In this document: positions 10,901 through 35,600 of the stretch, one piece after another
Layout: every line of letters begins with the position of its first letter
How positions within the stretch are numbered: position 1 is the stretch's first letter
Assembly (NCBI GenBank): GCA_024679065.1
Contig: JAGIQG010000003.1
Coordinates: 127,720,001 to 127,784,000, forward strand
Origin: Sphyrna mokarran
Taxonomy: Eukaryota
Length of the DNA: 64,000 bases
Direction of reading: 5' to 3'
Translations under genes and position numbers: made by a program
Notes under the pieces: generated by a model
Databases searched by the model: none
What the model was told of the DNA's origin: nothing
Seen by the model: the letters and a program-made list of their open reading frames with translations, nothing else

Positions 10901-11112
10901 TCAAAGCAAAGTAACGACAAGCAACCAGAGTTTGCATTAATATCGCGCCTTTCGACATACTCAGTTCAAGTTTACTCATCTTTGTAACAAGTAGGCTTAC
11001 ATTAACACTGCAGTGAAAATCAAAATGTAGAGATGCCGGCGTTGGACTGGGGTAAACTCGGTAAAGTTTTGCAACACCAATTTTAAATCCAACCAATTTA
11101 TTTGATAGTAAA

Positions 11113-11154
11113 TCCGCGAGCTTTCGACACTATGTTGTGCCTTCGTCAGGCAAA
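11113..11154 (-). ncRNA. Minimal type I hammerhead ribozyme (Penelope-associated)
   Basis: Reverse complement reads TTTGC-CTGACGA-A-GGCAC aacata GTGTC-GAAA-GC-TC-GCGGA: CUGANGA and GAAA core, stem II, stem I tttgc/gcgga, vestigial palindromic stem III. Confidence 0.75.
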
Positions 11155-29600: not shown

Positions 29601-32600
29601 GTAGCTATTACTAAGGAGCATAACTAAGGTTTGTGATGGGAGACATAAGAGGGATATCCAAGGTAGATTCTTCGCTCAGAGTGGTTGGGCTGTGGAATAC
29701 ACTGCCTGCTGTGATAGTGGAGTTAGGAATTTTCAAGCAGTTATTGGATAGGCACATAGAGCACACCAGGATAATAAAGAGTGGAATAGCTTGATCTTGG
29801 GTTTGGACGTAACTCGGCAGAACACTGAGGGCTGATGAACAGTACAGCACAGTACAGGTTTTATGTTTCAATGGCCTGAGATAGGAGCTGAGGCAGCCAC
29901 ATTGTAAAAATGCAAGTAGGTGATATAGGTAATTGAAGTTCAGTTCAAATGTATTACAGGGTACAAATACTCAGCTTCACAAAAGTTATTCTGGAGAGTC
30001 TGTATCCAGGGAATGAAGCATGTGGCAGGGACAAAGGACCAAATGATTTTGGATCTTCCATGTATTTAAATCAGATAGAATTTCTTTCCCACTATTTTTA
30101 GAAAACAAAAATCCTAACTGCAAGGATATCTATCCTTGGATATTTCTAAAATTTTAAAAAAGACCCTTAAAATAGTTGAATCAATGTCTGCCTGTAACTC
30201 TCTTCAAAAGAAGCTATCTGGCACTTGAGAAACTCGTATACAGTTATCTCTGCAATCCACTAACAGCCTCTCTGTGGGCTGCACAGACTAAATCCAACAA
30301 CAGTTATACAAAGGCCAAATACCCAGGATGGCCGATAACAATCTGCACATCTACTAAGACAAAGGGCCTTACAAACTTCCTTTCAATTCTTAAGTTCTAA
30401 AGGTTGAATCATTCCATGATTCTCTCTCAAGGATATAGTCATTTATATTTACTTAGGTCTCAGATTAATTTTAATGCATCTTCTCAAATACATCAGCGTG
30501 GTGCATGTTTTTTCATCATAGACCAAAAGTGTCACACAGATTGAGATCAATATTGATATGATTTCAGGACCCCAAGGAAGTGCTACATACTCTTTGTCAA
30601 AGGCAATGTGGAAACGTGACAGTCAAGCTCCTGGCTTGAGGGACCAGTGATACTTCCTTGCTGGACTATCAAGCTCAGTCTGCTGTTTACTACTTAACTG
30701 GTAGCCTCAAGCCCAAGTTGGACACCTCTAACTACATCGACATTGCTTCTGCTGGAAATTCTATACCATCACCTACAAGGTCAATTCATCTCTGCGTGCC
30801 TAACTCTGCAAAGTCAACATCAGCAGAAAAATAATTTAAAAAGCATCAGTTTTCAGCTGACTTCCACAAAAGAATACTTCAGCCTGGCCTCTAGGACCCA
30901 CATGAAACAATAATTATTCTCTTTATGGTCTCTGCACTATAAATCTTTCTGTCCTCTGTTGTTGTCTCTTTACTAAAAGAGGGAAATAGATTAAAACACT
31001 TTGCTCATCATGGACAAGTGGCAAGAGGAGAATTAGTACTGTTAAGTTAAATACCACCCCCACTATCCATAATAGCTGGGTATTAGCAGCTTATACATCT
31101 AAATGTCTTATTGAATGCTATCACTGAAGGCAACCTTGTCAATGAGAAAAAGGAAGCAACTACCTTATTTATCATAAGCTCTAACTGCTTTGATTATAGA
31201 CAAACTTACTTCATTTTCCGTCTTTTCCAATGCCTCAAGTTCTCGGTCAGACATTCTTGATCTTCTACGGATCTCTAAATTTTGCTGTAAACATAAAAAA
31301 GTGCAAGTTAATAATTGGCTGCAGCATAAATACTACTGTTCTATCTCTAAGACGTTACATACCATTTTCAGTCAAAATTATATGATATTTGGTGGAACTG
31401 GCAGCAAAAATACTATCCTTCCAGAAGCGTGAACAGAATTTGATTTTGAAAACATTGTGCATTTACCAAGCTTCCTAATGGTTGCAGGATATATAGGACA
31501 AGTAATTTCATCAGTGGCAAACAGCGTGTAAGGTCTATGTTTTCTACCACTGCAAAGAAACAAAGAATAATACAGCATAGTTACAGGCCTTTCGGCCTCC
31601 ACTGCTCATGAGCCCAACTAGACCATTCGTTTGTATCCCTCTATTTCCAGTCTGTTCCTGTGGCTTTCTAGATAAGTCTTAAATGATTCCAGCATGTCCG
31701 TCTCAACCACCTTGCTTGGAAATTTCCTTTGTCCTTTGGGCTCAGATTGATTTCAGTGCATCTTTTCAAATATGTCAGAGTGGTGCATGGTTTCTCATCA
31801 TAGACCAAAGGACCATTCAAGTAAAATTATCGTTAATATCAAGTGGCACAGCATAACCTGTGACCAAACTGAGAATTCAGATCACTGAATTAATACTGCT
31901 TTATCCGTATGGACCTACATTTAATTTACACATGCTTCTACAAAGATGATTAGTTTTGCTCTCATTACCCTGTGCAGATCAGACAGTTGCTGATGCCGAG
32001 TAAGTGCCTCTTTGTTAGGAAACTGCCGTCTGCACAACAGACAAGCTATTTTGTTCCAATCTGTCAGCCTTTCTTCCAGGTCTTGAACCGTCTCTTGCTC
32101 CTCTTCATCACTCTCTCCACTATATGATGCTACAAGTCCCTGTAGTGGGCTTGACTTTCTCTACAAAACAGATACCAAGATTCAGTTGTTAAAAAAGAAA
32201 GTACGTATTTCAGACAGTGAAACCTTAACCTGGGTAGTGAAAACTGAAAAGATAATCAAGCACCCCCAAATGACAATGTTGCGTATTAGCACATAAGTAC
32301 AACAGAAATAGAAGAGATGTTAACAAGGTATTGTGAACTTTTGAGATGAGATGCAAACAATGCAAGAAACATTGTACAATTTCTCAGTCAAAGTTCTAGC
32401 AAATGTCTGTTAAATAATTGATGTAGAGATGCCAGCATTGGACTGGGGTAAATACAGTAAGAAGTCTCACAACACCAGGTTAGAGTCCAATCAGCTTATT
32501 TGATAGTAATCTCACAAGCTTTCGGAAACAGTGTTCCTTCATCAGGCGTGTGGAAGGTTCCACACACCTGACGAAGAAACACTTTCGAAAGCTTGAAGGA

Positions 32601-35600
32601 TTACTTTCAAATAAGCTGGTTGGATTCTAACCTGGTGTTGAAAAGCTTCTTACTGAATAATTCAAGTGTCAACTTCAATTCATGATTCCTAAATCTGATA
32701 CAACACAAGCCGCTCCAAAGTTCCTTCGATCTCAGATTGATTTTAATGCATCTTTTCACATACGTCAGAGTGGTGCATGGTTTCTCATCACAGACCAAAG
32801 GACTATCCAAGTAAAATTATCGTCAGTATCGAGTAGTACCAAACTGAGAATTCAGATCACTGAATTAATACTGCTTTATCCCAATGGATCTACTTTTAAT
32901 TTACATCATTCTACAAAGATGATTAGTCTTGTTCTCATTACCGTGTGCAGATCAGAGAGTTGTTGATGCCGAGAACTTCCAATTGCGCAAACCAGAGTGA
33001 TTCCTTCGCCATGTGCACTTAAAAAAACTACTGATTTATCTAATTTCATTTAAGGTTTTGTATATTCTTATTGCAACCCAAGAAAGTAGCTCAAATGGAG
33101 TTTGCAGGTTAAGGAAATTGCAACATCAGCAAAACACTATGATCTTTCAAACTTTTATTTTAGTACAATTTCACTTCCATTTCTATCTTCTTGCGGGAGA
33201 TTTTAAATTTCAGCTGGCTTCAAATGCTTCAGAGCAGTACATGGTTGTTCTCCAATACTATTTCTGGTATCTTTCTACGACCACCATCACAGAAAGGATA
33301 AAAATCAAGGAGAATCACCCTACTCCAAAGATATTCATCACTTTACAGAATTTGCAATAGTGAACAGTGGAATAGTCTTCAGCCAGTTACCTCAGGCAGC
33401 TGAATGGAAAAAGGAGAAAAACATCAAAACTGTGACTCAAAGACATTCATACCTTTAATGGACTTTCATCATCATCTCGTAGGTGCTCCACTAAACCACT
33501 GAAAGGTTCTAATACCATCGGCTGCCGTTCCATCATCCCCTGTAACAGATGAGTTTAATGCCCATTAAAATATTACAGCTTTGGAGAGTGGGATTGAAGG
33601 CAGGAGCAATGGATATTCTAGGACAGAGTCTGGCTGTGCAACAAGATTTCAGGGGGTTGGCAGCAAGTTCTATAGCAATAAAATACTTAGCATTTACCAC
33701 TAGGGACCCTCAGTAGGCAAAGAATTATACAGTAATTACAATACAAATAGCCTGTTTCTGTCCTAAATCTCCCTCATTTATGCCCTCTCAACCATTGATA
33801 TGGCAGATTTTTTTTGTCACACCTTAATTTCAAAACATCTCTATCAAATTATTTCAAATCCTCTGTTGTAGCAAAGACAGCCCAATGCAAATTTTTATTT
33901 GCACAGAGTAGACAGTATGTTTGTGAATCTGTATTGCTTCCTCTCTGTCTGAACATTCTACCTATAGTGTCAAGCTCAAGAGCACACAGTATTCTATGTA
34001 TTTAACAACACTTATTAATCATTTAACTTTCACACACATAGATACAGAGTTAACAGGTATACTTGGGAAATGTTGTAGTCTTTAAATTAACTCACCTGCA
34101 TATTATTCATGGTAGCGGAATGTCTTTAAAAATGGGTACTACAATAGAACCTTGGAATATATTTTCCTTCATGATGTTCCTATAATCCCAATAGATTCCA
34201 GCAATGCCTCTTTAATTTCATATTGTCTCTTTATCATGACATTTCTCAGCTTAAAATTTTTACAAATTCAGGATTTAATCTCCTCCATTTGTCTTTTGTA
34301 AATACAGACAAAATATTTCAGGCTTCAATCTATCCTTTAACTGATTATTCACTCACTGAAGTCCCACATCACCATTTTATTTTTGCATTTGTAGAAAAGA
34401 TGTTCTTTTGAGGTTCTATCTTTATTCACCCTCTTTCCTTTAGCACCTCCAAGTTATCCAGACAATCTCTCTCATGCCACATCTACAGCAAAAAAAAAAA
34501 TGTTTTCACCTTTTAAATTCCACTAACATACCCTTTTCTCAAACAAAGCAAATCCTGCATCAGCTGCTGCGGACTCTCTCCTCTCTTCTTCTTTAGATGC
34601 AATCATCTGCAAGGCGGTTTTGACATTATCTTTCTGTTTGTTCAGACTCTTAGCCCATCGCTCCATGTCTTTGGCAATCTACAAGTGAAAGGGAAAAAGT
34701 GTATTCACTGACATGATATCTTTAGCTTTCAGATACTTAAATACAAGGAAAGCACACTATCAATCCCCAAACAGCAGGTTTTTAAACATTGGACTAGCAT
34801 GCAGAAAATTTCAAAGAGTTTTAGAACTAAGCAGAAGCTAGGAACAGGCAACCAAAGTAAATTCTGATATTAACTCATTCATCTTCCGGACATTTCTGTG
34901 GTCCAAGAGCAATTAACGTGCAATGTTGAATAGTTGGGAAGAAGGGGGCAAATCCATTAAGTGTTCATAATCTGTTCACAAAGTTCTCACCTGTTGTGCT
35001 GTCCTGCTCTTTGGCTTTTCCTTCTTCTCTTTTCCCTCTTTGCTTTTAGTCCCTGTGGCTGATTTGTTCTGCTGTGCAGTCTGATCTGGAGCAGGCAAGT
35101 AGGTTTGTTTCTCTCCATCCCAATACATGTACTGCTGAGTCTGTGGATTGTAATAGTACTGGAACAGAAAGATTCGACAAATGTTAATCACAGTTTGAGC
35201 TGACCGATTACCAATTCAGACGGTTGTATCACTTGGTATGAATTCTACATGGGGAAAAAAATCTAACCCAGCTAACTGACCCCAGCAATCAACTTATGAA
35301 CCACCTTCTCCCTTAGCGGACAGTCTCAGTTTTCTTCCAATCTATCCATCAGGTGTATACCCGAGTGGTGCACGGCCTGTCAAACAGACTAAGGTTTTGA
35401 CGATGACATTTATTTTAAGTTGAAGCCTAAATTTCCCCCCCCCCCCCACACAAAAAAATCTATGTGGAACAGCAAGAATGAATAAATTTGGAGACCTCAA
35501 ACAACACAGGAATGTATTCAAGAGCAACAGTTCCTTGGTTTCACCTATTTTTCCTGGAGAAAGCCTATGCTGCATTTGGATGGCATCTCCATTGCAGTAG

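What the first reader, a model, noticed from the sequence alone, without database searches (positions are those of the whole stretch)
11025..32662. One fold-back architecture at three scales: tail + hammerhead arm + inverted hammerhead arm + TSD
Seen: elements at 11025-16294 (5.3 kb), 16387-16847 (460 bp) and 32421-32655 (235 bp) are diverged from one another. All begin at the same motif ATGTAGAGATGCC, carry a 34-36-nt unpaired tail, then inverted arms ending at ...TTAC(TG), and are bounded by 7-12-bp direct repeats. Even the shortest keeps both hammerhead motifs. Inference: palindrome formation is the default integration product of this family, with a fixed asymmetric end. The minimal forms look like MITE-like double-ribozyme hairpins that might be mobilised as units. 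The vestigial GC stem III implies dimeric cleavage.
Basis: partly seen in the sequence, partly recalled or inferred. Interest (0 to 1): 0.78.

Follow-up and report, generated by a model that had tools for sequence, protein, structure and literature searches.

The report
Head-to-head Penelope-like retrotransposon insertions, shark
These are three dead insertions of an abundant Penelope-like jumping gene in a shark-type genome, each laid down as two back-to-back shortened copies with a one-sided tail, a layout already described for this class, and nothing here shows that the small hairpins jump as units.

Summary
Three insertions (11025-16295, 16387-16847, 32421-32655) start at one motif and carry a 34-36-nt tail, inverted arms (98, 95, 82% alike), a 12, 9 or 7-bp duplication, and a minimal hammerhead on all 6 arms. 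The long one encodes RT plus GIY-YIG with Neptune-type motifs; its nearest named relatives are shark proteins. Reads suggest about 10^4 copies, steadily 5'-truncated, with a sharp tail end. An inverted 5'-truncated copy, one-sided tail, variable TSD and dimer-type hammerhead are all published for Penelope-like elements. 'Default product' is only partly supported: 2 of 5 copies in the window are solo and lack the full tail, and tandem junctions occur. 'MITE-like double-ribozyme units' is not supported. The two hammerheads lie on opposite strands, so a transcript holds one ribozyme locked to its antisense copy. All three centres differ and look built at insertion. Both long arms share a rare RT active-site change (at most 2% of reads), pointing to one template. 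Likeliest mechanism: TPRT from the tail, then cDNA snap-back; double priming on one RNA is the rival. The scan reported this pattern before on other shark-like DNA.

The parts
11013..11024 (+). Element A, left target-site duplication (12 bp), at the end of a SINE remnant
   Evidence: SINE family D13
11025..11060 (-). Element A tail (36 nt), 3' end of the long copy
   Evidence: 10,408 loose read ends at 11025
11025..13969 (-). Element A long copy: near full-length Neptune-type PLE (N-terminal part, RT, GIY-YIG, 3' UTR/pLTR, tail); frameshifts near 13740, 11890 and 11515
   Evidence: Pfam RVT_1 E 4.9e-8, GIY-YIG E 2.1e-5; tblastn; tandem joint 13969->11025
11113..11154 (-). Minimal hammerhead, A left arm; predicted cut 11118/11117
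13970..13987 (+). Element A junction: about 8 nt of the switch-site sequence repeated before the second arm, forming a 6-bp hairpin
13976..16295 (+). Element A inverted, more strongly 5'-truncated copy without tail (RT from about 14053, GIY-YIG to 15985); frameshift near 15460
16201..16242 (+). Minimal hammerhead, A right arm; stem II closing C changed to T
16296..16307 (+). Element A, right target-site duplication
16378..16386 (+). Element B, left duplication (9 bp, 1 mismatch), in the head of a SINE
   Evidence: family D1
16387..16665 (-). Element B tail-bearing copy (tail 16387-16422; hammerhead 16477-16514)
16666..16714 (+). Element B centre: snap-back copy of 16645-16664, a second 13-nt copy of it, a 6-bp hairpin, and an 8-nt piece copied from 16591-16598
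16715..16847 (+). Element B inverted arm (hammerhead 16756-16793, closing C changed to T)
16848..16856 (+). Element B, right duplication
32413..32419 (+). Element C, left duplication (7 bp)
32421..32556 (-). Element C tail-bearing copy (tail 32421-32454; hammerhead 32511-32550); 2-nt loop at 32557-32558; lies in an intron of an RBM5/RBM10-like gene
32559..32655 (+). Element C inverted arm (hammerhead 32563-32599; stem I reduced to 1 contiguous pair)
32656..32662 (+). Element C, right duplication
9257..9304 (-). Solo 48-bp copy of the same end: no inverted arm, only about 4 nt of tail, 10-bp duplication (9247-9256 / 9305-9314)
63322..63662 (+). Solo pLTR-sized copy: no tail, no inverted arm, decayed hammerhead core, probable 7-bp duplication (63315-63321 / 63663-63669)

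Best explanation
A, B and C are independent insertions of related subfamilies of a Neptune-type Penelope-like retrotransposon. Each fold-back was built during its own insertion from one template and is dead on arrival. Shown: RT plus GIY-YIG, fixed tail end, 5' truncation, variable TSDs, head-to-head layout, one template for both arms of A (or later arm-to-arm conversion), templated pieces at the centres. From the literature: the endonuclease nicks both strands, and reverse transcription starts at two neighbouring RNA sites that bracket the tail. Inferred: cDNA is primed at the tail end and stops early; its free 3' end folds back and copies itself, sometimes after several false starts; the copy is closed at the inner start site (...TTAC(TG)) onto the second nick. 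I put this snap-back route at about 0.5 and double priming on one RNA at about 0.3. The hammerhead is simply carried along, because it lies about 93-95 nt from the tail end. It can work only as a dimer between tandem, same-sense pLTRs or with protein help, and is masked inside a hairpin transcript.
For: Pfam RT and GIY-YIG. Best named relatives are shark proteins at 82-83% identity. CX4CxxC linker with Neptune-like spacing, CCHH and DKG. Read depth falls steadily 22-fold from the endonuclease to the 5' end (Spearman -0.997 over 21 bins). At 12442, 3,242 of 3,306 reads differ from the window, yet both arms carry the window's letter (YIED where all 11 aligned relatives have IDD). Of 13 listed sites where most reads differ from the left arm, 5 are shared by both arms and 8 are left-only. 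Arm differences fit neutral decay once transitions are weighted (15 synonymous of 36, p 0.10-0.21). C has a 2-nt loop, B a chain of self-templated pieces, A a repeated switch-site piece. In 3 of 3 the tail arm reaches at least as far 5' as the other arm. The solo copies end at or within 4 nt of the same inner site. Layout published: PMC3846280, PMC8557442, PMC11167929, PMC4209133.
Against: Only 3 fold-backs were seen base by base, and no genome was available. The shared rare variant could also come from gene conversion between arms, or from a small dead subfamily (the 64 remaining reads may be tens of copies). Unweighted, the arm differences lean synonymous (pN/pS 0.41, p 0.009), which would fit two source genes; the signal fades with transition weighting. 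C's arms are only 82% alike, with clustered changes and more derived states on the tail-less arm, which would also fit two templates. Snap-back alone does not explain why the second arm stops at the site where solo copies end. 98 reads turn round at 11112 and 59 at 11064/11112; their centres are not shown, so a recurring unit is not excluded.
Confidence: 0.8

Rival explanations
1. Double target-primed reverse transcription: a dimeric RT primes one cDNA from each nicked strand, at the tail-end site and at the inner site of the same RNA (or of two RNAs), and the two truncated cDNAs are joined end to end. The identity is the same; the route to the palindrome differs.
For: The Anolis Poseidon protein cuts and extends both strands, starts at two sites that bracket the tail, and is predicted to be a dimer (PMC11167929). 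This explains the fixed TTAC(TG) end shared with solo copies. One RNA would also explain the shared variants of A. C's unlike arms would fit two RNAs.
Against: In B and C the second arm's pieces begin where the first arm stops (loops of 1-2 nt), which needs both cDNAs to end at one point. The tail arm is the longer or equal one in 3 of 3 (weak: 1 in 4 to 1 in 8 by chance).
Confidence: 0.3
2. The short hairpins (B, C) are non-autonomous, MITE-like units that are transcribed and re-inserted whole.
For: pLTR-only sequences can be mobilised in trans (PMC3846280 passages), and tandem retrozymes are argued to derive from PLEs (10.64898/2026.07.22.740005). 98 + 59 reads show short hairpins turning near 11112, so C-sized hairpins probably number in the hundreds (inference). 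C lies in a presumably transcribed intron.
Against: The three centres are unrelated. The ends are asymmetric and the TSDs are 12, 9 and 7 bp. No listed joint reaches about 1% of family depth (15 of 972 shown). 11112 is where C-type subfamilies stop resembling A, which would pile unlike junctions onto one coordinate. In a hairpin transcript the ribozyme core is paired (probability unpaired 0.01 or less at 27 of 28 core positions).
Confidence: 0.07
3. The palindromes arose after insertion (repair-driven inverted duplication) or are assembly artefacts.
For: Long palindromes can be assembly chimeras (own knowledge). Gene conversion could explain shared arm variants.
Against: TSDs enclose both arms in 3 of 3. 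The arms carry 47, 6 and 18 differing columns. The second arm ends at the same element position in three diverged subfamilies.
Confidence: 0.03

Closest known systems
Complex insertions of endonuclease-bearing Penelope-like elements with an inverted 5'-truncated copy and a one-sided tail (Pen2a_Av and others, PMC3846280, passages and Discussion read; Fig. 2 legend and text of PMC8557442, passages and sections 3 and 15 read)
   Same: Head-to-head inverted copy, 30-40-bp tail at one end only, variable 8-10-bp TSDs, palindromes at the junction read as self-priming.
   Different: Here the layout is seen at 5.3 kb, 461 bp and 235 bp in one window of a very high-copy shark family. Arkhipova et al. 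invoke an antisense RNA template; the junctions here are explained as well by the first-strand cDNA folding on itself (inference).
Neptune clade PLEs (Neptune-1_Ac, DrerioNep1, Neptune1_Nv in Figs S1-S2 of PMC8557442, part 54 of 59 of the supplement read)
   Same: C-terminal GIY-YIG with CCHH; CX4CxxC linker with a 23-residue spacer (long as in Neptune, not 4-7 as in Nematis); RT4 motif GTAMG..AP.YAN like DreriNep1.
   Different: Placed by eye on motifs, not by a tree. The TSDs here are not in microsatellites; A and B sit in SINEs.
Minimal type I hammerheads of metazoan PLEs (PMC4209133, results and discussion read; PMC6765202, passages)
   Same: No loop III, palindromic 15.2-16.2 pair, an extra base between positions 9 and 10.1, G10.1-C11.1, short helix I. 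That paper already notes pairs 100-700 bp apart on opposite strands.
   Different: No activity was tested here. In 2 of 6 arms C11.1 has decayed to T, and C's right arm has lost most of stem I.
Poseidon of Anolis carolinensis (PAc), PMC11167929 (parts 1-2 of 4 read)
   Same: Tail lies between two fixed ends, downstream of the hammerhead, and runs on into the 5' part of the ORF in tandem copies (joint 13969->11025).
   Different: Different clade (no linker zinc finger in Penelope/Poseidon). In the parts read the paper does not explain how inverted arms form.
MITEs and non-LTR retrozymes (10.64898/2026.07.22.740005, parts 1-2 of 5 and passages read; MITE features recalled)
   Same: Short, non-coding, repeat-bounded; retrozymes carry PLE-type hammerheads.
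   Different: MITEs have symmetric terminal repeats, a fixed TSD and identical copies. Retrozymes are same-sense tandem repeats. B and C meet neither description.

Membership tests
EN+ Penelope-like element | RT followed by a C-terminal GIY-YIG endonuclease | tested here: met
   Pfam RVT_1 and GIY-YIG above cut-off on both arms, split by frameshifts; full-length relatives align across both
EN+ Penelope-like element | CCHH motif with two cysteines between GIY and YIG | tested here: met
   VVYLIRCKKGCPEAWYIGET followed by NEHR and GEHF, compared with Fig. S2
EN+ Penelope-like element | pLTR from partial tandems, with hammerhead and optional 30-40-bp tail | tested here: met
   Tandem joint in 32 reads, tail end in 10,408 reads; hammerhead in 6 of 6 arms
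EN+ Penelope-like element | 5' truncation and variable-length TSD | tested here: met
   22-fold depth decline; TSDs of 12, 9, 7, 10 and probably 7 bp
Neptune clade | CX2-5CxxC linker with long spacer; DKG motif | tested here: met
   PCHSNLCKTC plus 23 residues; DKG on the right arm, DNG on the left
Neptune clade | RT phylogeny with labelled references | not tested
   No labelled reference sequences were available as tool records; motif comparison only
Penelope/Poseidon clade | Absence of the linker zinc finger | tested here: not met
   Linker present; definition from PMC8557442
Minimal type I hammerhead | CUGANGA and GAAA core, NUH site, helices I and II, palindromic stub for helix III | tested here: met
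   Structure count on 6 arms: 85% of cells paired against 22-57% for slid controls, 3 of 9 pairs with two-sided changes; only 3 independent lineages, so weak as covariation
Minimal type I hammerhead | Self-cleavage as dimer | not testable with these tools
   Needs an assay; folding shows it cannot form within one hairpin transcript
MITE | Symmetric terminal inverted repeats and fixed-length TSD | tested here: not met
   One-sided tail; TSDs of 9 and 7 bp; definition recalled
MITE | Many near-identical copies with the same interior | tested here: inconclusive
Non-LTR retrozyme | Same-sense tandem units, each with a hammerhead | tested here: not met
   One sense core per strand; definition

The most novel reading that the evidence does not exclude
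In this shark Neptune family, tail-primed insertions nearly always become palindromes by cDNA snap-back, while inner-site insertions stay solo (3 of 3 against 2 of 2 in the window). Hairpin apices may cluster at or within about 30 nt of the hammerhead cut, as the reads turning at 11112 allow. That would be the first genomic sign that ribozyme-cut RNA is a real template, giving a strong-stop cDNA that folds back, possibly with a re-mobilised mini-hairpin subfamily.
Probability: 0.12. Interest if true: 0.6.

Novelty: new member of a known kind. Interest (0 to 1): 0.22.

Why it matters
How PLEs make their inverted repeats and tail is named as open in PMC8557442 (section 15). A family with about 10^4 copies and readable junctions makes that testable by computation alone: which arm is longer, whether arms share rare variants, and where apices fall relative to the hammerhead cut. 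The architecture, the tail and the dimer-type hammerhead are not new, and these three copies add examples only.

Tried and rejected
Motif scans for more loci found 0 matches: metagenome contigs twice, genome contigs, viral contigs. Rfam gave no hammerhead hit at E up to 1. The 97-read joint 11126/13473 was rejected as a chance 17-of-18 match between the ORF and the hammerhead core. The apparent purifying signal between A's arms (p 0.009) was set aside after transition weighting (p 0.10-0.21). A read-based estimate of the share of 3' ends with a tail gave 0.4-0.8 depending on an assumed tail depth, which is too loose to use. Contig depths were not used as copy numbers. Run X3 is only guessed to be RNA and is held as contigs, so no claim of transcription rests on it. 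The free consensus fold found stem II and part of stem I but mispaired the core; the named structure was then counted. Look-ups of earlier findings by place and by sequence gave nothing. Literature searches for MITE-like PLE hairpins (penelope, mite, non-autonomous, hairpin, shark, at least 4 of 5 terms), for the inversion mechanism and for shark Neptune elements showed no such paper in their listings; the library lacks most subscription papers. Lunse et al. on dimeric cleavage was seen only as a reference title. The supplements of the bioRxiv preprint were closed and may list chondrichthyan families.
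Full report
Setting. The window is animal DNA with SINE and LINE remnants and exons of an RBM5/RBM10-like gene. The best named relatives of the element's protein are from Scyliorhinus, Heptranchias, Chiloscyllium and Mustelus, at 67-89% identity, so the host is most likely a shark.

Observation. The start motif occurs three times, at 11025, 16387 and 32421. Each is followed by a 36, 36 or 34-nt stretch without partner, then by inverted arms that are 98%, 95% and 82% alike. 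The elements are 76-83% alike to each other. Direct repeats of 12 bp, 9 bp (one mismatch) and 7 bp enclose them; 7 bp exact arises in 0.185% of 20,000 random pairs given the same slack. A minimal hammerhead descriptor hits all six arms and nothing else, against 0.08 hits in shuffles.

What it is. Element A is two head-to-head copies pointing outwards. The minus-strand copy (13969 to 11025) is nearly full length and ends in the tail; the plus-strand copy (13976 to 16295) is more truncated and stops 36 nt short. Both encode RT and GIY-YIG with frameshifts. The linker PCHSNLCKTC, its long spacer, the CCHH motif, DKG and the RT4 motif match Neptune rather than Nematis or Penelope/Poseidon when set by eye against Figs S1-S2 of PMC8557442; no tree was built. 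B and C are the same layout cut down to the pLTR end. Both keep the hammerhead because it lies within about 130 nt of the tail end. Two further copies have no inverted arm and lack the full tail: 9257-9304 with a 10-bp duplication, and 63322-63662 with a probable 7-bp one.

Family-wide evidence. I laid 4 of the 23 listed runs on 10400-13975 at 85% likeness. In raw genomic reads under the same species label as the best holder (1,919 million letters), single-copy flank depth was 0.3-2.5. Depth over the 3' region was 11,000-20,000 and at the 5' end about 540. That implies roughly 10^4 copies (8,500-41,000 by bin and assumed coverage) and a steady 22-fold decline, as expected from 5' truncation. 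10,408 reads end at 11025 with unlike flanks, so the tail end is fixed. 32 reads join 13969 to 11025, the head-to-tail tandem in which the tail runs on into the ORF. Only 15 of 972 joints, 40 of 1,586 differences and 24 of 8,217 loose ends were shown. The largest joint has 112 reads. Opposite-strand joints at 11112/11112 (98 reads) and 11064/11112 (59 reads) show that short hairpins are common. They fall where C-type subfamilies stop resembling A, so they do not show a shared junction; read length puts at least some apices within about 30 nt of that point, near the predicted cut at 11118/11117. A third opposite-strand joint, 11126/13473, is a chance match.

One template for both arms. Both arms of A read YIED where all 11 aligned relatives have IDD, and 3,242 of 3,306 reads differ from the window at that base. 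Of the 40 listed differences, 25 lie in the duplicated part. At 13 of these most reads differ from the left arm: 5 are shared by both arms and 8 are left-only. The arms therefore came from one template, or were converted later. Their 36 coding differences include 15 synonymous ones. That is significant unweighted (p 0.009) but not with transition weighting (p 0.10-0.21). C is less tidy: 18 of 102 columns differ, with clustered changes and more derived states on the tail-less arm, which two templates would also explain. I leave this open.

Junctions. C turns on a 2-nt loop. B's centre is a 20-nt snap-back on a 1-nt loop, a second 13-nt copy of it, a small hairpin and an 8-nt piece from further along, all copied from its own first arm. 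A repeats about 8 nt of the switch site before the second arm. These look like a free 3' end annealing again and again to its own strand. They are unrelated to each other.

Mechanism. PMC11167929 shows for an Anolis Poseidon element that both strands are cut and extended, that reverse transcription starts at two sites bracketing the tail, and that hammerhead cleavage is protein-assisted and not needed for insertion. My best reading is priming at the tail end, early stop, cDNA snap-back and closure at the inner site (about 0.5). Double priming on one RNA is the main rival (about 0.3); it explains the fixed inner end better and the 1-2-nt loops worse. Both build the palindrome anew at each insertion.

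Ribozyme. The motif is the published minimal type I hammerhead (PMC4209133), with some two-sided changes in its stems (only three lineages). The dimer inference fits that paper and the review PMC6765202. But a transcript through B or C holds one sense and one antisense core; the core is paired in the ensemble, and forcing the ribozyme costs 40-59 kcal/mol, against 4-12 for an arm alone. 'Double-ribozyme hairpin' is true of the DNA only.

Comparison with what is known. PMC3846280 describes an inverted pLTR, a 31-bp tail on one of the inverted pLTRs, 8-10-bp TSDs and junction palindromes read as self-priming. PMC8557442 draws the inverted 5'-truncated copy and the one-sided 30-40-bp tail as typical, and names their formation as an open question. 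PMC4209133 notes hammerhead pairs 100-700 bp apart on opposite strands. I found no paper on MITE-like PLE hairpins or on this shark family in the listings. Earlier notes of this scan reached the same reading on other shark-like DNA; they are unchecked and came after my own reading.

Verdict. Real and well preserved, a new example of a known architecture in a Neptune-type family. Fixed end: supported. Default product: common but not exclusive, share unmeasured. Unit mobilisation: unsupported, about 0.07. Interest 0.22; the value lies in using this family to test how PLE palindromes form.

Noticed in passing
window 30456-30524, 31738-31806, 32728-32796 (-): Three copies of a C/D-box snoRNA-like sequence (weak Rfam hits below gathering score) in introns of an RBM5/RBM10-like gene. 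Two lie in a roughly 970-990-bp local duplication that also copies an exon end. The guide resembles the SNORD32/51 type (recalled, untested).
   Followed up: no
window about 31168-56053 (-): Exons of an RBM5/RBM10-like gene (OCRE exon 34979-35215 matches RBM5 at E 1.3e-16 and RBM10 at 2.1e-16). Element C lies in one of its introns, about 70 bp from a snoRNA-like copy, and would form a roughly 100-bp hairpin in the pre-mRNA.
   Followed up: partly
window 10540-10900: CpG-rich promoter-like stretch about 150-250 bp from A's tail, with YY1-, CCAAT- and ZNF143-like motifs (recalled). A contig of run X3 matches only 10542-10737, ending at a minus-strand splice-donor-like site.
   Followed up: partly
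window 59143-59661: Symmetric inverted repeat (arms about 195 bp, about 89% alike) with TA near both ends and no hammerhead; looks like an ordinary DNA-transposon MITE, a useful contrast to B and C.
   Followed up: partly
window 23394-24558: Older inverted repeat (arms about 225-240 bp) with a SINE in the centre and a direct repeat at about 23650-23730 / 24560-24640; no hammerhead by the relaxed scan; possibly another fold-back family.
   Followed up: partly
window 10983-11024 and 16378-16918: A and B, only about 80 bp apart, both inserted in SINE sequence. A's right end TTACTG plus its duplication reads like the SINE's own 3' motif seen in the loose read ends at 11017, hinting at microhomology with the target.
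   Followed up: no
window 11888-11893 and 15459-15460: The two arms of A differ by 2 nt at one C-rich run between RT and endonuclease, and both are out of frame there; many reads also differ in length at this run.
   Followed up: partly
window 25034-25177: Three 40-bp tandem units in a CpG-rich stretch (family D12).
   Followed up: no
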